From Candidatus Poribacteria bacterium (lineage in GTDB: Bacteria > Poribacteria > WGA-4E > WGA-3G): a stretch of 64,000 nt of DNA. The stretch covers positions 11,807 to 75,806 of the forward strand of contig JAJEGI010000015.1 in assembly GCA_022819945.1 (NCBI GenBank), given 5' to 3'. Of this stretch, positions 621 to 63,300 are shown in pieces (within the stretch, counting starts at the first letter, position 1; each line of letters opens with the position of its first letter). The translations under genes were made by a program, and so were the position numbers. The notes under the pieces were generated by a model. It made no database searches, was not told the origin of the DNA, and was given only the letters and a program-made list of their open reading frames with translations.

Positions 621-3371
621 TCAGAAGAGATCCAATTGCTTTACTGTCTCTTCCTCTTTCTTCTTTTTTTCTAGCTCATCTATATTTTCTTTAACACGTT
701 CCAAACCGTTACCGTGTAAAAAACCTTCTAATAACCTTTTCTCTTTGTGTCCGGGAGGCAACGTTTCGGAAATAGCTTGTGCGACACGATGGAATGCATC
801 ATTCAATTGGTAACCTTCCCTCTCAAAAACGCCAAGGATTTCTTCATGCCGTGGATCCTCTGCCCACAGTAACAACACATAATGCAGAACGTCAATCAAT
901 TCACTTGCACCTTTGAGTTCGTTTGTTGTTCTGTCATGTGGCCCGAGGACGCGGATAAATTGCTTCTCTTTCTGGATAAAACTGCGTCCGCCCCACCCTT
1001 GGGCAAGGTCAATCCCGCAGGACTGTGCTAATTTCCGAGCGTCATCAAAAGGCACACGTTTTGTCCCGTATTCCCATCGCCAGATAACATAAAAGCGCGT
1101 GAGAGAAGTAATTTTCCCCTCTTCAAAACCATTTCGTAAAATCTTTTTCACAGCGTAATTGGTTACCATTTTTTGCACATCGGTGAGAAGACTGTCTGCT
1201 CGTATTATGTTCGCGTGACGATCCATTACCTTCTTGTATTTGCCAAATATCTCAATTGCTGAACCAATACCAGCTATGAAAAAGTCCGTCCCACTCAAAC
1301 CTTCAGTCCAAAGGCTATCAAGTTTTTCCTTGAGATGGGTTTCCATTTCCGTTTTTACGTCACTATAGAAACCTGTTTCTTTGCGCTCCATTTTCCGAGC
1401 GACAATATAGATAGAAGAAGCAAGGACAGCCGATTCTTGGGCACGGAGACGTGAGGTCATTTCTGTATGAAGAGGCCACGCGCCCGTCATTATGAGGCCG
1501 GAATCAAGCAAAGAATTAATCAATGTTTCCCATCCTGCTGTAGATTTATGGGCGTAGACAATGACGGCAATTCCGTTCGGTTTCAATACACGATAGATTT
1601 CTTGAAAAGAGTCTCTTAGTTTTTCTTCAAAGAACCGCTTGCCTTCCGCGAAGCCACCTGGACCATGTGAATAGGCAACGATCTCGTTATTCTTCGGTGT
1701 CAACGGTGTAGAAAAGAGATCGGGATCAACACTCCCAAGCGTTCGCTTCAGCCAAACATAAAAGAAATCTGAGAGATATGAATAGGGAACGTTGTCGTAA
1801 TATGGTGGATCAGTGAAAACAGCATCAAAAAAATTATCGTGATGCGGGAGGTTAGTGGCTGAGGAATGGGTAACATCAGCGGATTTTGAACTGGATTGTG
1901 AACAGTGTTCAATTACCTTAAAAAAATATTTGCAGCCACTCTCAAAACTTCCAGCCGAACCACTAAATGGATTTACTTCGGCATAATCCCAAATCATTGG
2001 CAGAGCCTGCCTTGAGTACAGATGTGCAACTCCTTCTGAACCGTTTAACCAGCGGACAAGCATATTGCTAACTGCCGCTGTCATGTCAAGTGCTAATGCT
2101 AAATAGCTCACAACTGCCTTGGCGTATTCTATATCAGTTTCCTTCACTACTATCTGTTGATATGCTTCCCTTACCTTCTCTACGAACGTAACCAACATCA
2201 ATTTCTGCCTTGCGTTAAAGAGATCGCCCCAGGTGTTCATTCCATAGTTTTGAACGGAAAATGCTCTTTCAGCTCCCCTTCCTTTTCCTTCTGGAGTAGG
2301 TTCATCTGGCACCGCCTCAATACCCCATTCCAACGTTAACTTCTCCTGCTTCTCTGCAAGAAATGTCTTAGCCCGCTCAAAGACAACCTCGTCGTCAACC
2401 GTAGCCACGCGATAACGCTTACCTCGCACACCCGGCTTGTACGTTACAACGGCAACCATCCGCTCACCTGCTTTTCCCTCCTGAAAAAGTTGCTTAGTCT
2501 GCTTTGAAGTTACCGTCCCACCGCAGGTTGGATTAGGACACACCGCGACAGCTTTTGAGACCGTGCCTTTCGTCGGATCAAAACCGTTGGGTATCGGTCC
2601 GTAGTCATCGCCAACAATCTTAAACTCAACATGCTCGTTCTTAACATCCGGATAAAGGGCAATTTTTTTCTCCTTTTTCCTCTGCTCCGTTTTCTCTTTC
2701 TTTACCAGCCAGAATTGTTTCATCAGGGGAATCTCCATACCACATAATGGATTCTGACATGGAATCGTTCGCGCCCAAATCCACCCAACGACACGCGAAC
2801 CATCTGCTTCTTCTTCATAAAAATCTTTTAGTTCCGCCTTCACTTCCTCAAGCACCCACGTGCTCCATTTTTTCACATCTTCCAGCAAGCGATTTCTGAA
2901 ACTCCTCTTAGAGACAGAACCGTACGTCTGTGGGTATTCTAACGTGCATTTCTGGATCAGGACCGAGACAGGGTTGAGATCACTAGAATAAGTTTTACAA
3001 CCAAGCCGAAGTGTCTCTAGTGGAATCGCCCCACCACCTCCAAAAGGATCCAACACTTTCGGGGGTTCACCCTCGTTAGCTGTAAGGATTTCTTCTCGTG
3101 CCCTTTCAATCAAATGCGCGTTCAAAAGATTTTCCCACTTTGAAAGTTTAATGATAAAATCACGCCTTTGATTCCTTTCTAAATAACCCTTCTTCGGTGC
3201 CTGTGTCAGTGCTGCATAAGCAGTAGCGCGTGAAGAGGCAAGCGGCCGCCGAGCCCACCAGACGTGAAGCGTGGAGATATGTCCATGTCGTATGTACTTA
3301 TCACGGATAGATTCCTCGGAAACCTCTTTAACAGGGAACGATTCTTCAATAAGACGTTTATCTTCTTGCAT
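621..3371 (-). CDS. DUF1156-family DNA methyltransferase (N6-adenine/N4-cytosine gamma-class motifs), paralogue a, 916 aa
   Basis: N-terminal 'HISTLHVWWARRPL' signature; SAM-binding motif I-like 'LDPFGGGGAIPLETLRLG'; catalytic motif IV 'FTDPPYYDNVPY'. ~70% aa identity to the 9813..12476 protein. 33-nt gap to the downstream DUF499-a start. Confidence 0.85.
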   Translation of the reverse strand: MQEDKRLIEESFPVKEVSEESIRDKYIRHGHISTLHVWWARRPLASSRATAYAALTQAPKKGYLERNQRRDFIIKLSKWENLLNAHLIERAREEILTANEGEPPKVLDPFGGGGAIPLETLRLGCKTYSSDLNPVSVLIQKCTLEYPQTYGSVSKRSFRNRLLEDVKKWSTWVLEEVKAELKDFYEEEADGSRVVGWIWARTIPCQNPLCGMEIPLMKQFWLVKKEKTEQRKKEKKIALYPDVKNEHVEFKIVGDDYGPIPNGFDPTKGTVSKAVAVCPNPTCGGTVTSKQTKQLFQEGKAGERMVAVVTYKPGVRGKRYRVATVDDEVVFERAKTFLAEKQEKLTLEWGIEAVPDEPTPEGKGRGAERAFSVQNYGMNTWGDLFNARQKLMLVTFVEKVREAYQQIVVKETDIEYAKAVVSYLALALDMTAAVSNMLVRWLNGSEGVAHLYSRQALPMIWDYAEVNPFSGSAGSFESGCKYFFKVIEHCSQSSSKSADVTHSSATNLPHHDNFFDAVFTDPPYYDNVPYSYLSDFFYVWLKRTLGSVDPDLFSTPLTPKNNEIVAYSHGPGGFAEGKRFFEEKLRDSFQEIYRVLKPNGIAVIVYAHKSTAGWETLINSLLDSGLIMTGAWPLHTEMTSRLRAQESAVLASSIYIVARKMERKETGFYSDVKTEMETHLKEKLDSLWTEGLSGTDFFIAGIGSAIEIFGKYKKVMDRHANIIRADSLLTDVQKMVTNYAVKKILRNGFEEGKITSLTRFYVIWRWEYGTKRVPFDDARKLAQSCGIDLAQGWGGRSFIQKEKQFIRVLGPHDRTTNELKGASELIDVLHYVLLLWAEDPRHEEILGVFEREGYQLNDAFHRVAQAISETLPPGHKEKRLLEGFLHGNGLERVKENIDELEKKKKEEETVKQLDLF

Positions 3372-4870: not shown

Positions 4871-4916
4871 ATCTTCCGTCTGTTTGTTGATTTCATCGAC
4901 GATGAACGCAAATACG

Positions 4917-5147: not shown

Positions 5148-5154
5148 AGTTGGG

Positions 5155-6442: not shown

Positions 6443-6564
6443 AGCGTCCTCCTTTTTAATGGAGATATACCTACTATTAAAATTGATTGAACACTCTAAT
6501 AGATAAAAAACTTGTCAAGTATGAGCACTGTTTGATTCTGGATGGCGCGGAAATTCAGTTATCT

Positions 6565-9482: not shown

Positions 9483-9810
9483 ACTCTACCTCTTTTTCAA
9501 TATAAGGTTTGTAACCCGGTTTGATGGATGTGGGGGTCACAAGGTCAATGTCCTTCTTAAACAGATCTTCCAGAAAAACAGCCAACCCCATGTAATCGTC
9601 AAAAGTCAATCTTTCGAGTTCAACGAGAAAATCAATGTCGCTTGCGGCAGTTGCCGTCCCTCGCACGTAAGATCCGAACAAGCCGATCCGTTTAACCCCG
9701 TATTTCCGCAGGGTTTTTCGATTGTCCACAAGGGTCTGCTTGATAAACGCCTTGCTAAGAATTTTTTGATCTTCCAAACTTAAATCCTCCACTAAGGCAC
9801 TTTCTAACAC
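9466..9810 (-). CDS. mntA: MntA-like minimal nucleotidyltransferase antitoxin
   Basis: 114 aa; 'GLFGSYVRGTATAASDIDFLVEL' = GS...DxD polymerase-beta-type nucleotidyltransferase motif. Confidence 0.75.
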   Translation of the reverse strand: MLESALVEDLSLEDQKILSKAFIKQTLVDNRKTLRKYGVKRIGLFGSYVRGTATAASDIDFLVELERLTFDDYMGLAVFLEDLFKKDIDLVTPTSIKPGYKPYIEKEVEYVTEL

Positions 9811-9812
9811 GT

Positions 9813-12476: not shown

Positions 12477-12706
12477 GCAGTATCCTTTTTGTGAAGGTTT
12501 GGTCGTTTTTTCGACTCCCCTATTCAAAACTATAGGTTTGTGACGTGGCAATACAACTGAGGATTTATAGCATATCAAAGATGTATGAAGATTTCAATGC
12601 AATTGTCGGAGAACGCATATAATGTTGCATCCTTGACGTGCGATAAATCGCACTACTACGAACCGATAAGCGCGTTATTCCAAGACTGTTTTTATCAAGG
12701 CCTGGT

Positions 12707-14716: not shown

Positions 14717-14774
14717 AGTAAAGTACGAAACCTCTTAAATTGATTGGTATTGTCTTGACACATCCTATATGATG

Positions 14775-47125: not shown

Positions 47126-49135
<2,010 letters not shown>

Positions 49136-49879: not shown

Positions 49880-50758
49880 ATGGATTTAAGTTTTAGCACC
49901 GGCGCGGGCAACGGCGGTTGGAGCCTTGCCGAATGCGCAGCGTGGGCAAAAGCGAACGGATTTGATGCAATCCGCCCGAATGCTAATGGTACTTTTGAAC
50001 CGAGTGCCATTATACAATCCGGCGGCGAAGCAGTCAAGGAAATTTTGGATGCCAACGGTATCTATCTCGCCGCTTTGACCTCTCACTGTAACCTTCTTGA
50101 CGACGACGCGGAAACACGGGAGCGTGCTCGTGATACACTGCTGCAGGCCATCGAAGCGACACATATCCTCGGTGCACCGGTGGTAGTGACGTATGCGGGA
50201 AGTCCCGTCAGTTGGCATTTCTATGGGCAATTCTCTTCGGAACCGGGGAACCCGGGTGATCGGTCAGTTGAACTCGTTGGGCGGTTCAAGGAGATGTGGA
50301 CACCTGTCGTCCGATTTGCGGAAGAGAAAGGCGTACAACTTGCGTTAGATTGTGCCGTACGGATGGGGAATATCGCCTGTAACCCCGAAATGTGGGAACG
50401 GATCCTTGATGCGATTCCGTCAGATTCGCTTGGTTTATCTTGTGATCCGTCGCATTGGCTCTGGATGGGGATTTTACCTGCTGAAGATGCGATCCGTATG
50501 TTCAAGGGCAAGTGGTATTATGCGGATGTGAAAGATTGCGAAATCAGCCCTCAGATGAAGTTCCGACAAGGGATTATCGGGAACTGGTGGTGGCAATATC
50601 GGGTACCGGGACGCGGACAACTGAATTGGGGAACGATCACTGGCGCGCTGCAGGAATCCGGTTATGACTATGTGTTGTGTGTTGAAAATGAGGATCGGGG
50701 TGCGCCCGGGTTAGATGGTTTCGCACTCGGTGGTAGGTATCTCCGTCAATTTCTATAA
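49880..50758 (+). CDS. sugar-phosphate isomerase/epimerase (xylose-isomerase-like TIM barrel)
   Basis: 292 aa; weak family-level resemblance only. Confidence 0.5.
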   Translation: MDLSFSTGAGNGGWSLAECAAWAKANGFDAIRPNANGTFEPSAIIQSGGEAVKEILDANGIYLAALTSHCNLLDDDAETRERARDTLLQAIEATHILGAPVVVTYAGSPVSWHFYGQFSSEPGNPGDRSVELVGRFKEMWTPVVRFAEEKGVQLALDCAVRMGNIACNPEMWERILDAIPSDSLGLSCDPSHWLWMGILPAEDAIRMFKGKWYYADVKDCEISPQMKFRQGIIGNWWWQYRVPGRGQLNWGTITGALQESGYDYVLCVENEDRGAPGLDGFALGGRYLRQFL

Positions 50759-52331: not shown

Positions 52332-53132
52332 ATGACTGATGAAGAAAAATTTCGATTTGACTTGAGCGGATTCCTTGTGCGTCCTGCGATCCTTGAACGC
52401 GATGAAGTGGACGCAATCGTTGATCAGATTGAGAAGATACACCACAACCCAGGATCTTTACCGCCAGAACACCGCGCTGTACCGGGTGGTCCGGCAAGTG
52501 TCCTGATTGACCATCCGAAGGTGCTTGATGTGTTGCATGAAATCATTGGACCCGATGTCCGATTGGAGAATTGCTCCTCTGTCTGGCGTGAAAAAGGGCA
52601 GGAACACGGTGGACTTCACGGGGGTGGACCACAGCAAGGTGATCCGATTTTCGGATACCGCGTCAACAACGGGCGGATTCACGCAGGAATGGTGCGGGTC
52701 GTTTTTGAACTCACAGATGTCACGAAAAAGGACGGTGCGACGCATTTTATAGCCGGTAGTCATAAGTCTAACTTCCCGATGCACGCTGATCACATGTCAT
52801 TAGAGGATGCGGAACGGAGTCCGTTCCTGATGTCGTATGATTGCCCGGCTGGCAGCGCCATCTTCTTTACGGAAAACCTCTGTCATGCGGGGCCTGTATG
52901 GCAACGAGAGGCACCGCGCGTGGCAGTCCTAAACGCTTATGCACATCTCGCAACGCACTGGCATCGGTTGAAGACCCCACCTGAAGTGCTCGCTGCCTTA
53001 CCGCGTGAGAAACAGGCATACTTCCGTGAACCGTGGGTTGCCGACTTTCGGACGAGTCCAGCAACAATTAACACGATTGAACGATTCATTAACAACGATG
53101 AACCGCCTGTTAACACCGATACCAAGCCGTGA
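52332..53132 (+). CDS. PhyH-family dioxygenase paralogue
   Basis: 266 aa; 'FDLSGFLVRPAIL', 'IAGSHKS'. Confidence 0.65.
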   Translation: MTDEEKFRFDLSGFLVRPAILERDEVDAIVDQIEKIHHNPGSLPPEHRAVPGGPASVLIDHPKVLDVLHEIIGPDVRLENCSSVWREKGQEHGGLHGGGPQQGDPIFGYRVNNGRIHAGMVRVVFELTDVTKKDGATHFIAGSHKSNFPMHADHMSLEDAERSPFLMSYDCPAGSAIFFTENLCHAGPVWQREAPRVAVLNAYAHLATHWHRLKTPPEVLAALPREKQAYFREPWVADFRTSPATINTIERFINNDEPPVNTDTKP

Positions 53133-53158: not shown

Positions 53159-55027
53159 TTAAATCATTAATTCGGTATTATACGTAGTCTCAACGGTTGC
53201 GAGATCCCAGATAAGGATTGTGCCGTCTGCACTACCGCTGGCAAATGTTCTACCATCTGGACTGAATGCCAATGTGCAAACCCTATAATTCTTAATGATT
53301 GCACGCTGCTGGTTGGTGATAGGGTCCCATAATCGGATCGTGTTGTCCTCAGCGTCACCGCCGCTTATAAACGTGCGTCCATCTGGCGAAAATGCAACCG
53401 TCTCAACAGTATCGGTATGCCCGATAAGGGTAGCGATATGCTGACAACTGTTCATATCCCAGAGTCTGATGGTCCTATCAGAACTCCCACTGGCGAGGAT
53501 GCTACCATCTGGTGAAAACGCGAGTGTCTTAACAGCATCGGTATGTCCCGTAAGTACAGTGAGATAATGACCTGTAACAGCATTCCATAATCGAATTGTT
53601 CCATCTTCACCACCACTGGCGAGCGTTCTCCCATCTGAGGAAAATGCAACTGTTTTAACATCATCCGTATGGCCTGTTAAGACTGCTAATAGGTTTTCAG
53701 TATCAATATCCCACAATCGCACGATGTTGTCTTCACCGCCACTGGCGAGTATAGGACTGTTCGGCGCGAATGCCAATGCGGTAACTATATCCGTATGTTC
53801 CAATATCCCCGTCTCGGTGCCGGTATTTACATTCCACAAGAAAATCCTTTCATCTTGACTCGCGCTGGCGAGGATGGTGCCGTCTGGTGAAAAGGCAATA
53901 TCCTCAATCAGATATTCATGACCGTTGAAGGCTTGTGACTCAGTGCGGGTATATAGGTCCCACAATCGAAGTTTTTCGTCACGACTGCCGCTGGCGAGAA
54001 GGCTACCATCAGGAGAGAATGCTACGGAATTAATCCACTCGATATGTCCGTCAATAATCGCCATTTCTGCGCCAGTATCCGGATTCCAGAACCGAATCGT
54101 ATGATCCCGACTTGCACTGGCAAGCACTGCGCCATCCGGTGAAAAAGAGATAGCGGAAACAGCCTCTTTATGCGCTTTGAGGGTCGTCTGCTCGGTGCCT
54201 GTATCGGCGTTCCAGAGCCGAACGGTCTGGTCGCCACTCCCACTTGCGAGGCGGGTTCCGTCAGTCGAAAATTCCAAATTACCGACGACTCCGATGTTTG
54301 TAGCGAAGGTTGCCAAGTTCTCACCGGTGGTGGTATCCCACAAACGGAGCGTCTCATCCCGACTTCCGCTAACGAGATTCATACCATTCGGAGAAAATGC
54401 CAACGCCATAACGCCATGCGTATGTCCTGTGAGTGTGATGAGTTGTCTTCCAGTGTGGGCATCCCAGAGTTTGATGGTGAAGTCGTTACTGCCGCTGGCG
54501 AGCGTTGTGCCATCGGATGATAACGCCAGCGCATTGATCGGATACGCATGTCCAATAACATGAAAAAGAAGGCGACCTGTGTGAATGTTCCAAAATCGGA
54601 TTTGTCGGTCCAAACCTGCACTGATGAGCGTGTTACCATCCGGAGAGACGACGAATGCCCAGACCTCATTTTCGTTATCTCCAAGTGTCATGGTGGTGCG
54701 ACGCTGTCGGGTATGAACATCCCATAACGAAATTGTGCTATCCGAATTTCCTGTTACAAGGGTTGCGCCATCATGCGAGAAAGCGAGCGAGATGACCCCT
54801 TGATCCTGTGCATGTTTAAAGAGGGCGAGTTCAGTACGGGTGTGTGCATCATACAGCCAAACGCCGATATAAGTGGCAACGGCGAGACGTGTTCCATCTG
54901 GCGAATACTGGATATCGGTTATTGCGCCTTTGCCGAGACGCGCCGAGGCACCTGAAGGTAGCTGCCATTTTGTGTAAGGTTGCGGATTTTGTGTGTTCAT
55001 CGGTCTAAATCGCGAGTCTTTGGACAA
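53159..55027 (-). CDS. WD40-repeat protein (>=12 repeats, cytoplasmic)
   Basis: 622 aa; repeated 'SPDG..LASGS.D.TI.LWD' units; no signal peptide. Confidence 0.8.
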   Translation of the reverse strand: MSKDSRFRPMNTQNPQPYTKWQLPSGASARLGKGAITDIQYSPDGTRLAVATYIGVWLYDAHTRTELALFKHAQDQGVISLAFSHDGATLVTGNSDSTISLWDVHTRQRRTTMTLGDNENEVWAFVVSPDGNTLISAGLDRQIRFWNIHTGRLLFHVIGHAYPINALALSSDGTTLASGSNDFTIKLWDAHTGRQLITLTGHTHGVMALAFSPNGMNLVSGSRDETLRLWDTTTGENLATFATNIGVVGNLEFSTDGTRLASGSGDQTVRLWNADTGTEQTTLKAHKEAVSAISFSPDGAVLASASRDHTIRFWNPDTGAEMAIIDGHIEWINSVAFSPDGSLLASGSRDEKLRLWDLYTRTESQAFNGHEYLIEDIAFSPDGTILASASQDERIFLWNVNTGTETGILEHTDIVTALAFAPNSPILASGGEDNIVRLWDIDTENLLAVLTGHTDDVKTVAFSSDGRTLASGGEDGTIRLWNAVTGHYLTVLTGHTDAVKTLAFSPDGSILASGSSDRTIRLWDMNSCQHIATLIGHTDTVETVAFSPDGRTFISGGDAEDNTIRLWDPITNQQRAIIKNYRVCTLAFSPDGRTFASGSADGTILIWDLATVETTYNTELMI

Positions 55028-55284
55028 TTAATAGAGCAGGATCAAGTAATTTTATCTATTCCTTTTAACCCAATCCATCACATAAAAATTCATAAAAAAT
55101 TGTCCAAAGTTTAGTCTTCAGTTGTGTTAAAAACACCTTGCTTTTTCGCCCTGAATAAGGTATAATAACCGTGAATTATTTAGAATTGTAGATGGGTATC
55201 CAACACTACACCTTCTGACATAGATAGCATACTACATTGCCTATAAGAAACCGTAAATTCCTCGCGATTGCATGGAGAAACCCG

Positions 55285-58200
55285 ATGAATATTTTTCGCG
55301 ATTTAAATGAAAAACAGATAGAAGCGGTAACGCACAAAGATGGTCCTCTACTTGTCATCGCAGGTCCCGGTACTGGTAAAACGAAGGTTATTACACACCG
55401 CATTGAGCATCTGATCCGCGAACACAATATCAGACCTGAGCAGATTCTTGCGATTACGTTTACCAATAAAGCAGCGGAAGAGATGCAGGAACGCATCAAC
55501 ACCGAGATCGGCGAACCGCACGGATCCAGCGTTAAGGCTTGTACCTTCCATGCATTTTGTGTCAAAGTGCTAAGGAAACACGCGCTAAAGATCGGATTAA
55601 GCGAAAACTTCACCATCTTTGATCAGGAACTTCAAGACGAGATATTAACAGAAAGCACCCGTGAGTTGAACCTCAACGCTGACGACTATCCACCATGGTT
55701 GCTGCGAAACATTATCAGCGATGCTAAATGCACACTACAAAATCCAGTTGAAGCGGTCAATAACACGGATATTTACGACTCAGAGACGCTCGAAAATATC
55801 CGAAGTATATTGCAAACCTACCAGCATAAACTCGACAAATATGATGCCCTCGATTTTGATGACCTTCTGCTGAAAACCGTTGAACTGTTAGGCGTAGAAG
55901 AAGTCAAAGAAGCCTATCATCAGGAAATTTCCTACATTCTTGTTGACGAATTTCACGATGTGAACCGCGTACAGTACTATCTACTCCAACGGCTCTGTGC
56001 CGCACCGGCGCATAATCTCATGGTCGTCGCCGATGAAGATCAGTCTATCTATAGTTGGCGCGGGTCAAGCCCAGCGTATATTGACAATTTCAGAACAGAC
56101 TTCGACCCGCGAACCGTCGAGCTGGACGATCATTATAGGTGCAGCGAGAAAATCCTACGTGCCGCGGAAGAAGTCATCTCCAGAAATCCAGAGCGGCAGA
56201 AACAGCATACCCTCAGAACCCACAAAGATGCCGGACGCGACATTTTTCACTACACTTTTGACACACCGATAGCGGAAGCACTTGGTATCATCAGTGTTAT
56301 TGAGAATTTAGTAAAGCGTCGTAGCTATTCCTATCGCGATATTGCGGTCTTTTACCGGACCCATAGACTTGCTGATGTTTTGGCAGAGCAACTGCTACGT
56401 GCCGACATTAAATTCCAGCGGATTCTACCGACGAATTCCTTTGGCGAAGGACACAGCAAAGGGATCCTCGCGTATCTCCGTCTCATCCAGTGGCAGCTTC
56501 CACAAGACTTGGAACAGGCAATCAATTTTCCTGAGACCTGTATTGACGATTTGACATGGGTACGTCTCAAGTGGCTTGCACAGCGTGAACGTATCGAGTT
56601 TATAGAGCTTCTGAGAAATATTGAGGCATACCCTGAAGATGTCGGTCCGTTAACACGCCAAAATGTCCATCAATTTTGGACACAGCTTGAGAAATTATCG
56701 ACTGAACTTGAAGCCGAGAAGACTGATAAAATCATTCAGAAACTCTTTGATGTCTTAGAACTCTCTCGTTCTGCTTACCGTGCCGAAGAATTGGAAATTA
56801 TCGAAAAACGACCTGAATTGCCGAATCTTGTGACCGCGCGGGATGTTCTCTACAGTGCACTTAACCTTGACGAACCGATTCAGGTTACCGCCAGCTACGG
56901 CATCGACGAGTATTGTGCAGCGCACATTATCCACCAGACGCTTGAAATCTATCTGGATAAGCATGCGGAACTTCATTTTCTGCCGCTTGATGAAAAGAGA
57001 CCGCCGCAATTTGACAACGGCGTGCATCTACTTATTGGTGATTTTGAAGAACTTAGAGAAACAGGACGGGATGCGCGGACAATTCTCATCGGCGCAGCAG
57101 GGACAGCAGATAGCGATGTAACCCACCTCGAAACCGAAGACGTTCGGAGCATCGCGGCACTCAAATTTTGCCAACGTCTTATTAACCGTTTTGAGAGTCC
57201 AAATATGGCGGATATGGTTGTCTATGATTTGGAGACAACCGGTATCAATCCGAAAACGGCACAAATTGTTGAGATCGCCGCGCGCCGTCTCAATGCAATT
57301 GGAGATGATGTTGAAACCTATTACTGCTTAGTAAAACCGCCGGGTGGACACATTCCGCGTGCGGCCACACGCATTCACCAAATTGATGAAGAAACCGTCA
57401 AAGATGCCCCTGGGATTGAATTGGTCCTGCCTGAATTCTTTGGGTTTATTCAAGATCGGATTTTGATTGGACACAATGTAGCGGAATACGATAATCCAAT
57501 CCTTGCGCGCGACCTTCAAACATATTTGAAAACGGGGTTATCAGCACCGCATTACGATACCCTCACTACGGCGCGTAGGCTTTTCCCGCGACAGCGGTGT
57601 AGCATGGGTGCGCTTGCCGAAAAATTTGGGATTGAACATGGTCGCTTACACGGTGCCTTAGAGGATGTTCGCGTCAATCGAGAGATCTTCAAAGAACTCA
57701 TCAAAATCGATGCTTACAAACGCGAAATGAAATCCCTGACCGAACTGCTACCGCTCGTGGGGCTTGGTATCCTCGCCAAAACAGAGGCATCGCAGCAAGA
57801 AGCAGCAGATACAAGAGATACCTTAACCGAAACAGATGTATACCTTAATGCCGCGAAACGTTTTGCCCAGACACACAACACTGTGCTGCCGGATCGTCTA
57901 CCGCTTGAAGCAGCAGAAGCAGCAGAGGCGACAGCATATATGGAAGAATTACAAGATACGGTTGTCCCAGAATTCCGAGAAGATATTGAATGGCGGCAAC
58001 GCCGTATTCAGTTTATGAACGCAGTCATCCATTTTGAATCCGTGAATGACGAGCATCAACTCACCAACTTCTTGGACTATCAGAAGTTGCTCACCAATAT
58101 TGATGAACTCGACGATACAACTGAGCAACTGACCTTAATGACGTTACATGCAGCGAAAGGAACGGAATTCCCAGTCGTTATCATTCTCGGTATGGAAGAG

Positions 58201-58413
58201 GGAAGTTTTCCGATGTGGAAGCAGAATATTACAGAAGAAGAAATTGAAGAGGAGCGTCGCCTTTTTTATGTTGGCATGACCCGCGCGCAAAATCAACTCT
58301 ATCTGTCCTCCACAATCTATCGCACGGGTGATCGAGATCGCGCTGCATCCATGTTCGTTCGTGAGGTGCCATCTAATTATGTGATTAAATGGCCTCAGTC
58401 AAAACGGGGGTAA
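55285..58413 (+). CDS. UvrD/PcrA-family SF1 helicase with an embedded DnaQ-like DEDDh 3'-5' exonuclease domain
   Basis: Start at ATG 55285 (GGAG RBS). UvrD motifs 'VIAGPGTGKTKVITHRI', 'ILVDEFHDVN', 'NYRC'. Internal 'VVYDLETTGINP...IVEIAA...HNVAEYDNPIL...HGALEDV' is an exonuclease-epsilon signature. C-terminal 'LMTLHAAKGTEFPVVIILG' and 'RRLFYVGMTRA' are UvrD_C motifs. Confidence 0.8.
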   Translation: MNIFRDLNEKQIEAVTHKDGPLLVIAGPGTGKTKVITHRIEHLIREHNIRPEQILAITFTNKAAEEMQERINTEIGEPHGSSVKACTFHAFCVKVLRKHALKIGLSENFTIFDQELQDEILTESTRELNLNADDYPPWLLRNIISDAKCTLQNPVEAVNNTDIYDSETLENIRSILQTYQHKLDKYDALDFDDLLLKTVELLGVEEVKEAYHQEISYILVDEFHDVNRVQYYLLQRLCAAPAHNLMVVADEDQSIYSWRGSSPAYIDNFRTDFDPRTVELDDHYRCSEKILRAAEEVISRNPERQKQHTLRTHKDAGRDIFHYTFDTPIAEALGIISVIENLVKRRSYSYRDIAVFYRTHRLADVLAEQLLRADIKFQRILPTNSFGEGHSKGILAYLRLIQWQLPQDLEQAINFPETCIDDLTWVRLKWLAQRERIEFIELLRNIEAYPEDVGPLTRQNVHQFWTQLEKLSTELEAEKTDKIIQKLFDVLELSRSAYRAEELEIIEKRPELPNLVTARDVLYSALNLDEPIQVTASYGIDEYCAAHIIHQTLEIYLDKHAELHFLPLDEKRPPQFDNGVHLLIGDFEELRETGRDARTILIGAAGTADSDVTHLETEDVRSIAALKFCQRLINRFESPNMADMVVYDLETTGINPKTAQIVEIAARRLNAIGDDVETYYCLVKPPGGHIPRAATRIHQIDEETVKDAPGIELVLPEFFGFIQDRILIGHNVAEYDNPILARDLQTYLKTGLSAPHYDTLTTARRLFPRQRCSMGALAEKFGIEHGRLHGALEDVRVNREIFKELIKIDAYKREMKSLTELLPLVGLGILAKTEASQQEAADTRDTLTETDVYLNAAKRFAQTHNTVLPDRLPLEAAEAAEATAYMEELQDTVVPEFREDIEWRQRRIQFMNAVIHFESVNDEHQLTNFLDYQKLLTNIDELDDTTEQLTLMTLHAAKGTEFPVVIILGMEEGSFPMWKQNITEEEIEEERRLFYVGMTRAQNQLYLSSTIYRTGDRDRAASMFVREVPSNYVIKWPQSKRG

Positions 58414-58464: not shown

Positions 58465-60363
58465 TTATTGATCTGGACGGATCTTCTCCCAATCCCATAG
58501 CAGGATCGCGCCGCCAGCATTCCAACTGGCGAGTGTCTTGCCATCGGGTGAAAACGTAACTGCATTAACCTCTTCTGTATCATCTATAAGTGTTGTAAGG
58601 TGGGCAGCAGTGGCGACATCCCATAACTGTACTTTGCCAGCAGTACACCCACTTATCAGTGTTTCCCCATCAAGCGAGAATGCCAAGGTACGTATTGGAC
58701 GATGGTCACCTTCAGAAGTTGCTAACCTTCGGCGATGACCCACATCCCAGAGCAAAAATGCATCCCATCCACCGCTTGCGAATAGACTGCCATCCGATGA
58801 AAACGCGATTGCCCATACATCGCGTTTATCGCCAATAAAAGTGGATACCAATTCGCCATTAATCGTGTCCCACAAGTGGACTATGTTGTTCTGATCTACA
58901 CTTGCGAAGGTTGTACCATCTGGCGAAAACGCAACCATTTTGGATATCCCTCCACCAACTTTAAGGGTTCCCAATAATTCTCCGCTTCGGACATCCCACC
59001 ACCAGATTTTCTGAGGCAGCCCTGCACTTGCGAGTGTGGTGCCATCGGGAGAAAACGCTAATGTCGTGGGGGTTTTCATATCCTCGTGGCGAATCAACAA
59101 CGCTTTTTCTGTCTTCGTATCCCACAAATGGATTGCCCCGTTAGCGTTTCCATTAGCAAACATGGTGCCATCTCGTGAAAATGCCAAGGTCGTCGGAGTC
59201 CTCATACTTTCATGACGGATCGTTTCTGCCTTTTCTTTCTCAATATCCCACAGATGGATTGTATCATCGGCGTTTCCAGTGGCAAGCGTCCGACTGTCCG
59301 GCGAAAACGCCAACACAGTTCCAACGCTCCTATGTGCTATCGCAGGAAAATGTTGCTCGCCGTTAGTCGTATTCCAAAACCGGATTGTGCCGCTTTGCGT
59401 CACTGTCGTGAGCGTTTCGCCATCTGGGGAGAACGCCAGTGCATTCGCCCAACCTGGATGATCTGTCGGAAATATAGGAAATTTATTGGCACCAGTAACC
59501 AAATTCAACCACTCAACCGCATCTGTATCTCCGCCAATAGCGAGTTTCGTGCCGTCTGGTGAGAATGCTAACGCGTCAACCGACCAGTTATGTGAATGAT
59601 GCTCCTGCTGTACTTCACCGGTTTTTATGTCCCATACGAAAAGCGTTGGCCACTCGCTGCCACCACTGGCAATCATCTTTCCATCCGGTGAAAACGCCAA
59701 TTCAGTAATAAAAATTTCAGTATTAATATTTTTATGCTCAAGGAAAGTATACCAATGTTTACCCGTTTCTGGATTCCATAAACGGACCGTTCTGTCCGAA
59801 CTTCCGCTACCGAGTGTGTTACCATCCGGTGAAAACGCAACGATGTTGACAGCATCTGTATGTCCAGTGAGATGTCTACGCAGTTTACCTGTCTCTGTAT
59901 CCCAGATGCTGATTGTCCGATCACGGCTTCCGCTGGCGAGTGTTGCACCATCGGGTGAGAACACAACTGACAAAACGTGTTGTGTATGTATCGGCGGAAA
60001 ATGTCTAATTCTCCCTGTATCTAAACGCCGCAACCAAATTGTTCCTTCATCACTACCACAGGCAATTGTTTTACCATCCGGTGAGAAGGCAATCGCAGAA
60101 ACATCAAAAGGCGTTGCGGGTTCCAAGGCGGTTTCCGTACCAGTGGCAGCATCATAAAGCCAAATACCGACGCTACTTGCGACTGCGATTTGGGTCCGAT
60201 CTGGTGAGAAGGCCGTATCCGTTATCACACCTTTATTGATACCGAATCGTGCTTTGGCACCGAAAGGTAATGGCTGCTGTGCATCAATATTTTCATACCC
60301 TGTAATGAGCAGCAATAGACAGATGAATATGATGAAATGCTTACAATTTGTCACATTTTTCAA
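58465..60363 (-). CDS. secreted WD40-repeat protein
   Basis: 632 aa with signal peptide 'FIIFICLLLLITG'; >=12 'FSPDG..LASG..D.TI.LWD' repeats. Confidence 0.8.
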   Translation of the reverse strand: MKNVTNCKHFIIFICLLLLITGYENIDAQQPLPFGAKARFGINKGVITDTAFSPDRTQIAVASSVGIWLYDAATGTETALEPATPFDVSAIAFSPDGKTIACGSDEGTIWLRRLDTGRIRHFPPIHTQHVLSVVFSPDGATLASGSRDRTISIWDTETGKLRRHLTGHTDAVNIVAFSPDGNTLGSGSSDRTVRLWNPETGKHWYTFLEHKNINTEIFITELAFSPDGKMIASGGSEWPTLFVWDIKTGEVQQEHHSHNWSVDALAFSPDGTKLAIGGDTDAVEWLNLVTGANKFPIFPTDHPGWANALAFSPDGETLTTVTQSGTIRFWNTTNGEQHFPAIAHRSVGTVLAFSPDSRTLATGNADDTIHLWDIEKEKAETIRHESMRTPTTLAFSRDGTMFANGNANGAIHLWDTKTEKALLIRHEDMKTPTTLAFSPDGTTLASAGLPQKIWWWDVRSGELLGTLKVGGGISKMVAFSPDGTTFASVDQNNIVHLWDTINGELVSTFIGDKRDVWAIAFSSDGSLFASGGWDAFLLWDVGHRRRLATSEGDHRPIRTLAFSLDGETLISGCTAGKVQLWDVATAAHLTTLIDDTEEVNAVTFSPDGKTLASWNAGGAILLWDWEKIRPDQ

Positions 60364-60397: not shown

Positions 60398-63300
60398 CTA
60401 CTTCAAAATCAACATTTTCCGTGTCGATATGAACTCGCCTGCGGTTAATGTATAGAAATAGAGACCACTCGCTACAGGTTCACCGACGTTATTTCTGCCA
60501 TCCCAATAGGCGGCGCGGCTACGACTCTGATAGATCCCTGCAGGCAATTGCCCTAACACCAACGTCCGAACCAGCATTCCATTGACAGCATAAATCGTTA
60601 GGGTAACCTCGGCGGGTTCTGAGAGTTGGTAGGGTATCCATGTCTCTGGGTTAAACGGATTCGGATAGTTCGGTAGTAGTGCTGTCGCTTCAGGGATCAA
60701 GGCTGCCAAAAGCCGTTCGAGATTCGCGATACCTTGTTGGAAAACGAGCGATCCATCGTCTTCAGCGCGTGCCTGTTTTATCCACGCTTGAACTGTTGCT
60801 GGGTCTAATTCTTTTATGTCCTCTATTGTGACAGTGGCAGGTGCGGTTGCCGCTATTGATTCGCCGAGATGTTGGGCGACAAGGACAAGATCTAAGATGT
60901 TAATAATTCCATCGTCGTTTACATCAGATCTCGGATTAACGGACGGAGCACTTCCTAAGTTTTGTGCCACGAGAACTATATCTAAAATGTTTACTTGCCC
61001 ATCATTATTGACATCCCAGATGAGTCTGTCCTTCAATACAAGAGCGACCTCAAGGGGACCGGCAGGGATTGATTCCCCCGTGCCATCACCGAATCGAAAG
61101 TTAGTAAGCACCAATTGTGTCTTACCACCCGCTTTTGCTGCAAAGGTCACCGATAGCAGCAATCCTGTACCACTGACAGCATTTCCATTGAGTTTCGCTT
61201 CACTGAGACCTATAATGTTACCCGCCTGATTATCAATTGTTCCGTTCTGGAAGGAGGTTCCGCCACCCTCCGATGCCAGAAGATAGCCTTTGCGGGTCTC
61301 AATTGCTTCAAGGTGTAAAGGATCAAACACGATGTCAAACTGCCATGCTACTAAATCGGTGACATCTTCTGCGTAGAGGTCAATCGTAAATGTATCACCT
61401 GTAGAGATCTCAACATTGGGAAAGGCATATCCGATGCCAGCAAAAGGTAGCACGGTATACTCCGTATCCGCTTGAAATCCAAAAAAACCACTCCATCCGC
61501 CTGTACGGTTTTCAACAGCAACCAACATGGTATTTTTCCCCTGTTTTAGGGTGACTGCGAAAGAACCGCGGTAATCGGAGGCACTCCGCCCAACAATATC
61601 TTCACGCACAAGTTCGCCATTGATCCAAACCTTTACGCTGTCATCGCTTCCAACAAACATCTTTGTGTTCTGTTCTTGTGGAGCATCTAAGGTGATGAAG
61701 CCGTAAATGACGCGGTTGTTTCCGTTCCAGCCGAGAGAACCGGTCATATCGTTAAGGTTATTACCACCACTGCTGTCTATTTTGAGAGGTGTCCAGACAT
61801 AGTCCCCAATTGTATCTCCTGGTGACACACCGGTAGTTGCGATTTGCTGCTCTGTAACAGCACCCCCACTCGCTTTTGCCAACAGATCCGTGCTTTTGTC
61901 AAGTTGTTCATCCGGCACCAGTACCCATAACCACGGTCCTTGAATTTTCGGACCACCTTGGGATGGATCCAAGTTGACATCTTGATCATCGGGAGATGTA
62001 CTGGTCTGTCCTATATCACTGAAAATTCGTTCAACGAACGCCCTATATTCATCTTTGGCAGCGTCTACCCACGCAGGCAGTGCGCCTAATCGTCGCTCCA
62101 GTTGTGCCTCGTAAAGTGAATCTGGGGAGACGTGGGATCCAAATCCTTCGAAGTAGGCGTTGCGCGGAATAGAACCTCCCAATGTTTTGTAACCGATCAG
62201 GTTGGCTTGCGTGACCGCAAAACTGTATCCGCCGGGTGTCCACAGATTAAAGGTTCTACTGTCAACGACGTTGTTGTTCCAGCGTGTGTAACCATCAAGA
62301 TGGTGAGGCAAGTTGAATATTGCTCCGCCGCTCGCCTGATGGTTGATGCTGTTGTAATTATCGAATAGCGTATGGCGAGGCTGCGAACCGTGCGTATCAG
62401 GACCTCTCATCTGTTTCCCATCAATCTTCCAAACAACAGTTCCTGCCGAAGAGGAAGCCACGCTGATACCGTGCCACATCCCTTTGTCTGTATAGTCCGT
62501 TAAGAGACCGATAAAGCAGTATGTTGAGTAAGTGGCACTTCCGGGGATGTGCCCGTATCTGCCATCAAGTATAACTCCGAGTGCCGAGTTGCTGTAAGAA
62601 ACGTGGTGCCCAAACGCGTTGATGGTGTTTGAGAATCGACACCGGCGAATCCATGAATGGGCGGTATGCCAGAGCGTGATACCTCCCCGTCCCTCTTGAA
62701 CGAGATGCTCGTAAGGTTCCTGTAGGTTACCGTCTATGTGCAGGTCTTCAAAGCCGATACCCACCGTCATATCTCGCCAGTTGACGTTAAAACTTGAATT
62801 GAGATGCGTCAGCACCGGTGCCTTCACATAAACTCGGTTTCCGGCAATGCGGTCGATTTCATGAATTTCATACACGTTGATGCCATCTCGGATGTTTGTG
62901 TATGATTCGAGCATGTCCGACATCGTTCGGGAAGAGTGTTGACCCCAGTCGGTTCCGAGCAATCCGTCTGCTCGGATTTCAATGAATCTGCGGTTTCTCA
63001 GACGACTCACATCTTCGACATCGAAATGCCGTGTTCCCTTTGGGAAAGAACCTTTGACGCGCGTTGACGATCCTTGCCCGTTTGAACGCCAACGGGTTTT
63101 AAACAACCTCAGACCACTTGTTAGGACGTTGTGCATCTTGATGGTAGTTCCACCGTTGGAAGCACCTTCGGCACCGCTGCCGCGAACGATGACGTTGTCG
63201 CCTGATACGACGATCTGCTCCGCCGGTTCACTGTCAAGAAGGACGTCGTATAGTCCGGGCGGAAAGAACACAATACCACCGCCGGAAGAAGCAGCACTAA

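What the first reader, a model, noticed from the sequence alone, without database searches (positions are those of the whole stretch)
55285..58413. UvrD-family helicase with an internal DEDDh (DnaQ-like) exonuclease domain, flanked by convergent WD40 genes
A UvrD/PcrA 1A-2A core (Walker A 'GPGTGKT', 'DEFHD', C-terminal 'TLHAAKGTEFP'/'VGMTRA') is interrupted by a ~170-aa epsilon-type exonuclease module (aa ~650..820: 'YDLETTG...', 'H-N-x-E-YD', 'HGALEDV'). It sits roughly where the 2B/accessory region would be. An Exo-helicase fusion recalls Gram-positive DinG-Exo and eukaryotic WRN, but within the UvrD fold it is unusual. It may be a repair or anti-MGE nuclease-helicase. Both flanking genes are WD40 beta-propellers, one secreted and one cytoplasmic, on the opposite strand.
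Basis: partly seen in the sequence, partly recalled or inferred. Interest (0 to 1): 0.55.

Follow-up and report, generated by a model that had tools for sequence, protein, structure and literature searches.

The report
UvrD-like helicase with built-in proofreading-type exonuclease
This is a real gene for a DNA motor protein of the UvrD/PcrA kind with a proofreading-type 3'-5' exonuclease built into its regulatory domain; it belongs to an uncharacterised family found in several bacterial phyla and most likely acts as a one-protein DNA strand-excision enzyme.

Summary
Window 55285-58413 (+) encodes a 1042-aa protein with a complete SF1A UvrD/PcrA motor. About 420 aa (aa 483-907) are inserted in the C-terminal half of the 2B domain. 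The centre of that insert (aa 641-815) is a DnaQ/PolC-type DEDDh exonuclease with all five catalytic residues.

It is not a mis-assembly. More than 120 near-full-length clusters in Candidatus Poribacteria have the same architecture. About 40 further clusters at 28-67% identity have it too; the named ones are Poribacteria and Chloroflexota. A shorter 828-aa form occurs in the cultured Clostridium relative Acetoanaerobium noterae.

It is an extra paralog. Canonical PcrA, with its Tudor C-terminus, appears to lie on the same chromosomes.

The family has lost the 2B 'GIG' motif, has a shortened 2A hairpin and lacks the PcrA C-terminal domain. No partner gene is conserved. It was not found in the plasmid, phage or IMG/VR collections searched.

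Best reading, by inference: a stand-alone ATP-driven 3'-end strand-excision or resection enzyme, functionally UvrD plus ExoI/ExoX in one polypeptide. A defence role or an RNA/R-loop role is not excluded.

It is a new variant of a known kind, of moderate interest.

The parts
55285..58413 (+). Whole gene: 1042-aa SF1A helicase-exonuclease fusion (stop codon 58411-58413)
   Evidence: ORF list and translation. Pfam and NCBIfam matches. An identical protein, P0001, is in public assemblies.
55138..55166 (+). Promoter-like element TTGCTT-17 nt-TATAAT, about 120 nt upstream of the ATG, in the AT-rich divergent intergenic region
   Evidence: Read from the sequence. The consensus scan did not list it because the -35 hexamer matches only 3 of 6. 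Not evidence of function.
55285..56415 (+). Motor domains 1A/1B and the N-terminal part of 2A (aa 1-377). Contains the Q motif, Walker A GPGTGKT (55363-55383), motif II DEFHD, motif III DEDQSIYSWRG and motif IV HYRCS.
   Evidence: Alignment to PcrA and UvrD1 structures. Pfam UvrD-helicase aa 7-273. Motif residues conserved across the family.
56416..56730 (+). N-terminal part of domain 2B (aa 378-482). The canonical RGIG duplex-contact motif is replaced by ETCID (aa 417-421).
   Evidence: In one search, PcrA INVPKRGIGASTI aligns to INFPETCIDDLTW. In one search, GIG is absent in all insert-bearing members and present in the canonical ones.
56731..57204 (+). First part of the insert (aa 483-640): helices, then a small alpha/beta subdomain (strands at about aa 532-615) and a long helix (aa 621-635). 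No known family.
   Evidence: No Pfam match at E<=10. Confident secondary structure in model m993ed9ad9c50. Conserved in the family: G539, I540, D541, L583, I584, G585 and others.
57205..57729 (+). DEDDh (DnaQ/PolC-type) 3'-5' exonuclease domain (aa 641-815). Catalytic residues: D648 (57226-57228), E650 (57232-57234), D736 (57490-57492), H789 (57649-57651), D794 (57664-57666).
   Evidence: Pfam RNase_T aa 645-802. NCBIfam matches to DEDD exonuclease, the PolC exonuclease domain and DnaQ. PDB 2p1j, PolC-type exonuclease, E 9e-25. Catalytic residues invariant in alignment A1 and intact in 37 of 40 family clusters.
57730..58005 (+). Last part of the insert (aa 816-907): helical arm with the conserved S817-L-x-E-x-L-P-x-V-G-x-G motif, leading back into 2B
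   Evidence: Invariant or near-invariant columns. Helices at aa 819-833, 849-864 and 876-891 in the model. This segment also aligns in the short Acetoanaerobium form.
58006..58410 (+). C-terminal end of 2B and C-terminal half of 2A (aa 908-1042) with motifs V (TLHAAKGTEFP) and VI (VGMTRA). The 2A hairpin is shortened. There is no PcrA/UvrD C-terminal Tudor domain.
   Evidence: Aligns to PcrA 513-645. Hairpin comparison. PF21196 is present in Poribacteria PcrA but absent here.
53159..55027 (-). Upstream neighbour, divergently transcribed: 622-aa WD40 repeat protein. Context only, not part of the system.
   Evidence: Pfam WD40, 13 repeats. Not conserved next to homologues.
58465..60363 (-). Downstream neighbour, convergent: 632-aa WD40 repeat protein with a signal-like N-terminus. 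Context only.
   Evidence: Pfam. N-terminal sequence. Not conserved next to homologues.

Best explanation
The gene encodes a bifunctional enzyme from a distinct, uncharacterised clade of SF1A (UvrD/PcrA/Rep-like) motor proteins. A DnaQ/PolC-type DEDDh 3'-5' exonuclease, with helical and alpha/beta scaffolding (about 420 aa in total), is built into the regulatory 2B domain. It is a second UvrD-like paralog beside the housekeeping PcrA.

Proposed mechanism (inferred, not shown):
- The motor binds single-stranded DNA at a 3' end, nick or gap and translocates 3'->5'.
- As it moves it clears proteins and/or opens the duplex ahead.
- The built-in exonuclease digests the same 3'-ended strand behind it.
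- The net result is ATP-driven excision or resection of one strand by a single polypeptide.

Functionally this equals the UvrD + ExoI/ExoX pair of E. coli mismatch-repair excision, or the 3'-strand degradation by RecB/AddA.

The 2B surface that normally touches duplex DNA and mediates dimerisation (the GIG motif) is lost. The enzyme is therefore predicted to be regulated differently from UvrD/PcrA, probably acting as a monomer whose 2B-exonuclease module replaces the canonical auto-inhibitory contact.
For: Shown:
- Intact ATPase and translocation motifs, and intact DEDDh residues.
- The exonuclease domain is as conserved as the motor core: 0.80 vs 0.83 identity within Poribacteria and 0.38 vs 0.38 family-wide.
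- DEDDh is intact in 37 of 40 insert-bearing clusters.
- The exonuclease is closest to PolC/DnaQ/DEDD DNA exonucleases.
- The AlphaFold model has pLDDT 90.9 and pTM 0.86, which indicates a packed module, not a loose tether.
- Best structural matches are PcrA, UvrD and Rep.
- Canonical PcrA passes its equivalog cut-off (928.8 vs 911.2) in a Poribacteria MAG.
- Contig-length fingerprints indicate that PcrA and the fusion share four contigs: 6252337, 6421138, 6749164 and 1084455 bp.
- The fusion is only 36% identical to that PcrA.
- It separates from canonical PcrA/UvrD in a core-only neighbour-joining tree.
- GIG is lost and the hairpin shortened in every insert-bearing member.
- The role of GIG and 2B in auto-inhibition and dimerisation is taken from review PMC13238157.
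- It is a stand-alone gene with variable neighbours.
- It was not found in the plasmid or phage collections, nor among the IMG/VR candidates examined.

Inferred: the coupling geometry and the substrate.
Against: - There is no biochemical or genetic data for any member, and I found no paper on this architecture.
- I could not inspect model coordinates, so whether the exonuclease active site lies near the 3' exit of the motor is unknown.
- 2B normally sits near the duplex or junction side, not the 3' exit. That would favour action on a recessed 3' end at a junction instead.
- Loss of GIG and the shortened hairpin could mean it is only a translocase and not a helicase.
- Three clusters have degenerate DEDDh residues, so in some lineages the module may be structural.
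Confidence: 0.5

Rival explanations
1. Junction-anchored 3'-end trimmer. The enzyme binds a primer-template junction (5'-tailed duplex, gap or stalled fork), as PcrA does when it reels in ssDNA. It pumps the template strand to strip RecA or SSB, while the 2B-embedded exonuclease degrades the recessed 3' end of the nascent or invading strand. This would be an anti-recombinase or fork-processing role, similar to the action of WRN or ExoDinG on recessed 3' ends.
For: - The insert is in 2B, the domain that contacts the duplex at the junction in monomer-DNA structures.
- The exonuclease is of the proofreading (PolC/DnaQ) type, which acts on primer termini.
- UvrD-family monomers are translocases that clear RecA filaments in gaps (review PMC13238157).
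- Loss of GIG and the short hairpin fit a translocase better than a processive helicase.
Against: - There is no direct evidence.
- The canonical duplex-contact motif is itself lost, so the canonical junction-binding mode may not apply.
- The PcrA reeling-in behaviour is recalled from established literature and was not tested here.
Confidence: 0.2
2. Anti-phage or anti-plasmid defence effector: a stand-alone nuclease-helicase that degrades invading DNA, in the manner of Nhi-like proteins or Gabija GajB with a fused nuclease.
For: - The best PADLOC profiles are GajB (UvrD-like, 320 bits) and a Cas-associated DEDDh model.
- In a Chloroflexales contig the homologue lies next to Mrr, Trypco1/trypsin-EAD7 and nSTAND3 genes.
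- In another locus a small nucleotidyltransferase gene overlaps its start.
- The window has a defence-like island at 0.6-18 kb.
- A phage 'DNA 3'-5' helicase' with DEDDh segments exists in BFVD.
Against: - The GajB hits cover only the generic motor (profile positions 5-388 of 635) and score below PcrA (515 bits).
- No GajA/OLD partner or any other conserved partner is present.
- The gene is conserved across Poribacteria at 76-100% identity in about as many listed clusters as PcrA, and the upstream PhyH gene is the same in the one close relative examined. This is a pattern of vertical inheritance.
- It was absent from the plasmid, phage and IMG/VR sets searched.
- The defence-like island in the window is 37 kb away.
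Confidence: 0.13
3. R-loop or RNA-processing enzyme. The motor unwinds RNA:DNA hybrids or tracks along nucleic acid while the DEDDh domain acts as a 3'-5' exoribonuclease, as reported for B. subtilis DinG.
For: - DEDDh domains include RNases (the Pfam family is named RNase_T).
- B. subtilis ExoDinG is described as an exo(ribo)nuclease that mitigates replication stress (PMC12525004, abstract seen).
Against: - The closest exonuclease relatives are DNA proofreaders (PolC, DnaQ, DEDD-GIY-YIG proteins), not RNase T or oligoribonuclease.
- The protein lacks the C-terminal Tudor domain through which PcrA/UvrD bind RNA polymerase (PMC3797733, title and abstract seen).
Confidence: 0.1
4. Assembly or annotation artefact: two adjacent genes (a helicase and an exonuclease) wrongly joined.
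For: Some database entries are fragments of 250-670 aa carrying only part of the architecture.
Against: - The window has one uninterrupted reading frame.
- The exonuclease is nested, with helicase sequence on both sides, which a simple fusion of neighbouring genes cannot produce.
- The same layout occurs in more than 160 clusters from independent assemblies, including complete chromosomes.
- The whole chain is confidently modelled.
Confidence: 0.01

Closest known systems
PcrA / UvrD / Rep (SF1A 3'-5' DNA helicases-translocases)
   Same: All motor motifs are present (Q, I, Ia, II, III, IV, V, VI). It has the 1A/1B/2A/2B layout. It is 34-40% identical to PcrA over the core. The best sequence and fold matches are 1pjr, 2is6, 3lfu and 1uaa.
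   Different: - A 420-aa insert with a DEDDh exonuclease sits inside 2B.
- The GIG motif is lost and the 2A hairpin is shortened.
- There is no C-terminal Tudor or RNAP-binding domain.
- It scores 515 bits against the PcrA equivalog cut-off of 911.
- It appears to share a chromosome with a true PcrA.
RecB / AddA / AdnB (SF1A helicase-nuclease subunits of end-resection machines)
   Same: A UvrD-like motor covalently joined to a nuclease. The likely logic is the same: the motor feeds a strand to a nuclease. Weak motor-level matches.
   Different: Their nuclease is a C-terminal PD-(D/E)xK endonuclease domain, and they work with RecC/RecD, AddB or AdnA partners. Here the nuclease is a DEDDh exonuclease nested in 2B, and no partner gene is conserved.
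ExoDinG (Gram-positive DinG with an N-terminal DEDDh exonuclease) and eukaryotic WRN
   Same: A DnaQ-like 3'-5' exonuclease fused to a DNA helicase in one polypeptide (PMC11981726, PMC12345164). NCBIfam also gives a DinG exonuclease-region match.
   Different: Those are SF2 helicases (XPD-like with 5'-3' polarity, or RecQ) with the exonuclease as a terminal domain. Here the motor is SF1A and the exonuclease is an internal insertion in a regulatory domain.
E. coli mismatch-repair excision pair UvrD + ExoI/ExoX; B. subtilis MrfA helicase + MrfB DEDDh exonuclease
   Same: The same two activities (helicase or translocase plus a DEDDh 3'-5' exonuclease) cooperating to remove a DNA strand. MrfAB is described in bioRxiv 10.1101/2024.02.15.580553. 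The MMR pairing comes from established knowledge.
   Different: In those systems the activities are on separate proteins. A functional equivalence here is inferred only.
Gabija GajB
   Same: A UvrD-like motor. PADLOC GajB profiles give the best defence-library hits.
   Different: GajB works with the GajA OLD-family nuclease, which is not encoded nearby. GajB has no DEDDh insert. The hits cover only the generic N-terminal motor.
828-aa UvrD-RNase_T protein of Acetoanaerobium noterae (uncharacterised)
   Same: An exonuclease plus following helical arm nested in the UvrD_C region. One BLAST segment spans the exonuclease through to the 2A C-terminus (24% identity). The C-terminal junction is the same, at PcrA ~503.
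   Different: It lacks about 230 aa (most of 2B and the alpha/beta subdomain), and its insert replaces PcrA 415-502. Its position in the core tree is uncertain.

Membership tests
SF1A UvrD/PcrA/Rep helicase superfamily | Conserved motor motifs (Q, I/Walker A, Ia, II DExx, III, IV, V, VI with arginine finger) | tested here: met
   LNEKQ, GPGTGKT, TFTNKAA, DEFHD, DEDQSIYSWRG, HYRCS, TLHAAKGTEF and VGMTRA all align to PcrA and UvrD1. K32, D221, E222, Q253, R259, R285, R992 and R1000 are conserved in the family.
SF1A UvrD/PcrA/Rep helicase superfamily | 1A/1B/2A/2B fold | tested here: met
   Pfam UvrD-helicase and UvrD_C. Foldseek top hits are PcrA, UvrD and Rep, with TM-score 0.66-0.73 normalised to the target.
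PcrA orthologue (TIGR01073 equivalog) | Full-length score above the curated cut-off of 911.2 bits | tested here: not met
   515 bits in two stretches. The canonical PcrA from a Poribacteria MAG scores 928.8.
PcrA/UvrD orthologues | GIG motif in 2B (duplex contact and dimer interface) | tested here: not met
   RGIG is replaced by ETCID. It is absent in all insert-bearing members and present in canonical sequences in the same alignment. The role of the motif is from PMC13238157.
PcrA/UvrD orthologues | C-terminal Tudor-like domain (PF21196) that binds RNA polymerase | tested here: not met
   No PF21196 hit, and the protein ends about 10 aa after the 2A core. PF21196 is listed for most Poribacteria PcrA clusters.
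DEDDh (DnaQ-like) 3'-5' exonucleases | Exo I (DxE), Exo II (D) and Exo III (H-x4-D) residues on an RNase_T-family fold | tested here: met
   D648, E650, D736, H789 and D794 are invariant in A1. Pfam RNase_T 90.5 bits against a cut-off of 24. The model has a confident alpha/beta fold at aa 644-815.
DEDDh (DnaQ-like) 3'-5' exonucleases | Mg-dependent 3'-5' exonuclease activity | not testable with these tools
   Requires biochemistry.
Gabija (GajA/GajB) | GajB encoded next to the GajA OLD/TOPRIM nuclease | tested here: not met
   The neighbours are WD40 genes. No OLD-like gene is adjacent in the homologous loci examined. L001 has an AAA_15/AAA_21 gene about 8 kb upstream, separated by several genes.
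AddA/RecB/AdnB helicase-nucleases | C-terminal PD-(D/E)xK nuclease domain and a partner subunit | tested here: not met
   No such domain in Pfam or NCBIfam. The scores are far below the cut-offs: addA 130.7 vs 707.65 and recB 103.7 vs 696.05.
ExoDinG / WRN | SF2 helicase core (XPD-like or RecQ) with a terminal DnaQ-like exonuclease | tested here: not met
   The core is SF1A. Only the exonuclease region matches the DinG model, aa 644-916, 74.8 bits vs a cut-off of 789.

The most novel reading that the evidence does not exclude
The family could be a natural experiment in SF1A regulation. The auto-inhibitory and dimerisation surface of 2B (the GIG region) has been swapped for an exonuclease module. 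Motor activity and unwinding would then be gated by engagement of a DNA 3' end in the exonuclease site, not by dimerisation or partner proteins. This would give a monomeric, self-activating helicase-exonuclease that defines a previously unrecognised strand-excision pathway in Poribacteria and Chloroflexota, and in a reduced form in Clostridia.
Probability: 0.2. Interest if true: 0.65.

Novelty: new variant of a known kind. Interest (0 to 1): 0.45.

Why it matters
Helicase-nuclease fusions are central to DNA repair (RecBCD/AddAB, WRN, Dna2, ExoDinG). A DnaQ-type exonuclease nested inside the regulatory 2B domain of a UvrD-like motor has not been described in the literature I could search.

Current work holds that 2B, and specifically the GIG surface, auto-inhibits UvrD-family monomers and mediates the activating dimer. 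A conserved family that has lost that surface and carries an enzyme there offers a direct test of how 2B controls these motors.

Biologically, it may show how bacteria with no recognised helicase partner for post-MutL excision, or with heavy DNA-damage or foreign-DNA loads (sponge symbionts, Chloroflexota), excise 3'-ended strands with one protein.

If instead it proves to be a defence effector, it would add a single-gene nuclease-helicase system.

Tried and rejected
1. Mis-assembly or gene-fusion artefact. Rejected: nested topology, a single ORF and more than 160 independent clusters.
2. 'This is the organism's PcrA with an insertion.' Rejected: a canonical PcrA exists in Poribacteria and appears to share contigs with the fusion.
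3. Gabija GajB. Rejected on context and profile coverage.
It gave only one true fusion locus (L002) plus, usefully, the Poribacteria PcrA locus L013.
5. The first AlphaFold run, with a shallow Poribacteria-only alignment, was poor (pLDDT 63.5). The second, with the diverse family alignment, was good.
7. Pfam on the two non-exonuclease insert segments found nothing at E<=10.
8. Four literature searches for a UvrD-DEDDh fusion, plus text look-ups in two of the papers found, found no description.
9. Plasmid, phage, BFVD and IMG/VR searches found no full-architecture match.
10. The promoter and terminator scan was uninformative.


Full report
**1. What is in the sequence**

The region holds one open reading frame, 55237..58413 on the + strand. 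The first ATG is at 55285, giving a 1042-aa protein. An identical protein is already in public assemblies (P0001).

Pfam finds:
- UvrD-helicase at aa 7-273 (E 9e-81).
- UvrD_C stretched over aa 279-1010.
- UvrD_C_2 at aa 950-1007.
- Nested between these, RNase_T (the DEDD exonuclease family) at aa 645-802, E 2.3e-25, 90.5 bits against a gathering score of 24.

NCBIfam ranks PcrA first, at 515 bits in two stretches, far below the equivalog cut-off of 911. It matches the exonuclease part to DEDD exonuclease, the PolC exonuclease domain and DnaQ models.

**2. Domain boundaries**

phmmer against solved structures aligns aa 4-482 to G. stearothermophilus PcrA residues 9-490, and aa 908-1032 to PcrA 513-645. 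By the published PcrA domain limits (2B is roughly residues 385-555; my knowledge of Subramanya et al. 1996 and Velankar et al. 1999), about 420 aa are inserted within the C-terminal half of 2B. The insert does not take the place of 2B.

A first AlphaFold run with a shallow alignment was poor. A second run, with a diverse family alignment, gave mean pLDDT 90.9 and pTM 0.86. Its secondary structure divides the insert as follows:
- Helices, aa 483-530.
- A small alpha/beta subdomain, strands between about aa 532 and 615.
- A long helix, aa 621-635.
- The exonuclease, aa 644-815.
- Three more helices, aa 819-891, leading back into 2B.

The high pTM suggests the module packs against the core and is not a loose tether. 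I could not inspect coordinates.

The non-exonuclease parts match no Pfam family, even at E<=10. Foldseek against the PDB returns PcrA, UvrD, Rep and UvrD1 first, then AddA, AdnB and RecB.

**3. Catalytic competence**

Motor motifs Q, I, Ia, II, III, IV, V and VI are intact.

Motif II reads DEFHD where DE(F/Y)QD is usual. Across the family H and Q each occur in about half of the clusters, so I attach no functional meaning to this.

The DEDDh residues D648, E650, D736, H789 and D794 are invariant in 41 Poribacteria sequences. They are intact in 37 of 40 insert-bearing clusters family-wide. P0249, P0251 and P0276 are degenerate.

The exonuclease is as conserved as the motor core: mean identity to the query is 0.80 vs 0.83 within Poribacteria and 0.38 vs 0.38 family-wide. 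Both activities appear to be under purifying selection.

**4. Not an artefact; the spread of the family**

- The word-indexed search returned at least 120 clusters (90% identity level) of 1035-1070 aa at 76-100% identity, all with the same Pfam set. The named ones are Candidatus Poribacteria.
- The exhaustive representative search found about 40 further clusters (50% identity level) of roughly 990-1130 aa that align with the query end to end or nearly so, at 28-67% identity. All carry the insert.
- Source names attached to members are Poribacteria, Chloroflexales, Anaerolineae and Thermomicrobiales. The functional labels are only generic, such as 'UvrD-helicase domain-containing protein' or 'superfamily I DNA/RNA helicase/DNA polymerase III epsilon subunit-like protein'.
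- A tblastn search of the plasmid collection hit a 2.6-Mb replicon of the cultured Clostridium relative Acetoanaerobium noterae. It encodes an 828-aa UvrD-like protein with RNase_T nested at aa 469-626.
- In that shorter protein the exonuclease, the following helical arm and the 2A C-terminus align with the query in one segment. The insert replaces PcrA 415-502 and shares the C-terminal junction. This is a reduced form of the same design. Its place in the tree is uncertain.

The nested topology also rules out a simple join of two neighbouring genes.

**5. An extra paralog, not the housekeeping PcrA**

The genome scan recovered locus L013 from a Poribacteria MAG. It encodes a 718-aa protein that passes the PcrA equivalog cut-off (928.8 vs 911.2). 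That protein is only 36% identical to the fusion over the core.

Searching with this PcrA returned many Poribacteria clusters carrying the PcrA/UvrD Tudor domain PF21196. Four of them have the same longest-contig length as fusion clusters:
- 6252337 bp: P0017 and P0466.
- 6421138 bp: P0022 and P0506.
- 6749164 bp: P0053 and P0501.
- 1084455 bp: P0033 and P0451.

This indirect fingerprint indicates that both genes lie on the same chromosomes.

A neighbour-joining tree on 473 motor-core columns places all of the roughly 1000-aa insert-bearing proteins apart from canonical PcrA/UvrD representatives, including the Poribacteria PcrA (no bootstrap, midpoint root).

**6. Family-specific changes in the motor**

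- In PcrA and UvrD the 2B 'GIG' motif contacts duplex DNA. A recent review reports that this contact is auto-inhibitory in monomers and that the same surface forms the 2B-2B interface of the active dimer (PMC13238157).
- In the query, RGIG is replaced by ETCID.
- In every insert-bearing member the motif is replaced by FP(R/E)xxxD(E/D)LT. Canonical sequences in the same alignment keep (R/K)(G/A)(I/L)G.
- The 2A beta-hairpin, the proposed 'separation pin', is 2-3 residues shorter and lacks the aromatic-glycine pair.
- The protein ends just after 2A and lacks the C-terminal Tudor domain that binds RNA polymerase.

Together these define a distinct clade. Its regulation and partner interactions are predicted to differ from those of UvrD and PcrA.

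**7. Genomic context**

In the window the gene stands alone.
- Upstream there is a 257-nt AT-rich region with a TTGCTT-17-TATAAT element, then a divergent WD40 gene.
- Downstream there is a convergent WD40 gene with a signal-like N-terminus, then a cohesin/dockerin surface protein.
- Further upstream on the + strand lie genes for PhyH, DUF1611 and a xylose-isomerase-like TIM-barrel protein, and NAD-dependent ligase LigA (47132-49135). MutS is at 24841-27534.

Homologous loci share no neighbour consistently:
- Only PhyH upstream is shared in a 77%-identical Poribacteria locus.
- Unrelated genes surround the 54%-identical locus.
- One locus has gatCAB and NFACT genes.
- One has DUF4062, a small nucleotidyltransferase and DnaE.
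- One has PhyH and sugar-metabolism genes.
- In a Chloroflexales contig the neighbours are Mrr, Trypco1/trypsin-EAD7 and nSTAND3, which are conflict-system genes.

No full-architecture match was found in 72,556 plasmid records, 50,697 phage records, BFVD, or the IMG/VR candidates examined.

**8. How it most likely works**

Shown: an intact SF1A ATPase and translocation core, an intact proofreading-type DEDDh site, tight integration of the two, selection on both, a stand-alone gene, and a paralog of PcrA.

Established for the parent families (my knowledge and PMC13238157):
- UvrD-family motors move 3'->5' on ssDNA.
- Monomers are translocases that can strip RecA.
- Helicase activity needs relief of 2B auto-inhibition.
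- DEDDh enzymes of the DnaQ/PolC/ExoI/ExoX type remove nucleotides from free DNA 3' ends.
- In E. coli mismatch repair, UvrD loaded at a nick on the 3' side of the mismatch tracks the nicked strand, and ExoI or ExoX degrades that strand 3'->5'.

Inference: this protein unites the two steps. The motor loads on a 3'-ended strand at a nick, gap or tail and moves 3'->5', opening duplex or clearing bound proteins. The built-in exonuclease degrades the same strand from its 3' end, giving ATP-driven strand excision or resection. I put this at about 0.5.

A geometric variant, at about 0.2, has the enzyme sitting at a primer-template junction and trimming the recessed 3' end while reeling in template ssDNA. 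It fits the location of the insert in the junction-proximal 2B domain. It cannot be separated from the main model without coordinates or experiments.

**9. Other rivals**

*Defence effector (about 0.13).* It is suggested by the PADLOC hits and by one defence-island neighbourhood. Against it:
- The GajB hits reflect only generic motor homology.
- There is no GajA or other conserved partner.
- The distribution in Poribacteria looks vertical and is about as broad as that of PcrA.
- It was absent from the mobile-element collections searched.

*R-loop or RNA role (about 0.1).* It is possible by analogy with B. subtilis DinG (PMC12525004). The exonuclease's nearest relatives are DNA proofreaders, however, and the RNAP-binding domain is missing.

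**10. Comparison with what is known, and novelty**

The protein is a member of the SF1A UvrD-like superfamily and of the DEDDh exonuclease superfamily. It is not a PcrA or UvrD orthologue, because three defining features were tested and not met. It is not GajB, AddA/RecB or ExoDinG/WRN.

Functionally it resembles helicase-nuclease repair enzymes. I found no paper describing this architecture: four searches and text look-ups in two of the papers found. Databases give the family only generic names.

I rate it a new variant of a known kind and of moderate interest (0.45). Its main value is as a natural remodelling of the 2B regulatory domain that is currently central to the debate over the UvrD-family mechanism, and as a candidate single-polypeptide excision enzyme.

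Noticed in passing
window 621-18125 (minus strand): A defence-island-like cluster: two DUF1156 proteins (621-3371, 9813-12578), a DUF499 ATPase (6565-9141), an AAA_15/AAA_21 ATPase (12707-14716) and an SNF2/ResIII helicase with a NOV_C domain (14775-18125). It lies 37 kb from the helicase-exonuclease gene.
   Followed up: no
window 24841-27534 (-) and 47132-49135 (+): MutS (all five MutS domains) and NAD-dependent DNA ligase LigA are in the same window. LigA is about 6 kb upstream of the fusion gene on the same strand. Neither was seen near the homologues examined, so probably no linkage.
   Followed up: partly
window 35122-41292 (-) and 60398-63580 (-): Large eukaryote-like surface proteins. 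One is 2056 aa with cadherin, LDL-receptor class B and NHL repeats and a Por secretion tail. The other is 1060 aa with DUF4955, cohesin, dockerin and FlgD-Ig domains. Together with the two WD40 genes, this is typical of sponge-symbiont Poribacteria.
   Followed up: no
window 52332-53132 and 49880-50758; L001 717-1517; L085 6350-7756; L002 9846-10712: PhyH-family dioxygenase and/or xylose-isomerase-like TIM-barrel (AP_endonuc_2) genes recur within a few kb of the fusion gene, including in one distant member (L085, 29% identity). These families may simply be abundant in such genomes. This was not tested.
   Followed up: partly
family alignment A2 (P0249, P0251, P0276): Three family clusters keep the exonuclease domain but have lost some or all DEDDh residues. 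P0276 also has altered motor residues (DD..E in motif II, with R259 and R285 replaced). These are possible inactive or structural derivatives, or pseudogenes.
   Followed up: no
BFVD entry A0A6J5QNL6 (uncultured Caudovirales phage, 1206 aa): A phage protein named 'DNA 3'-5' helicase' has segments that match the exonuclease domain of the model closely (174 columns, rmsd 1.5, 33% identity). Helicase-DEDDh combinations may therefore also exist in phages. Its architecture was not examined.
   Followed up: no
L086 7664-8011 and 8001-11090: In one distant homologue's locus, a 115-aa nucleotidyltransferase (NTP_transf_2/Polbeta) gene overlaps the start of the fusion gene by 11 nt and is preceded by a DUF4062 gene. 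This may be an operon in that lineage only.
   Followed up: no
proteins P0122 (621 aa) and P0142 (408 aa), both listed with longest contig 116126 bp: Two different partial exonuclease-bearing proteins (78% and 49% identical to the insert) are listed with the same longest-contig length. Either one genome has two paralogs of the fusion, or these are split or frameshifted genes.
   Followed up: no
[not shown]
   Followed up: partly
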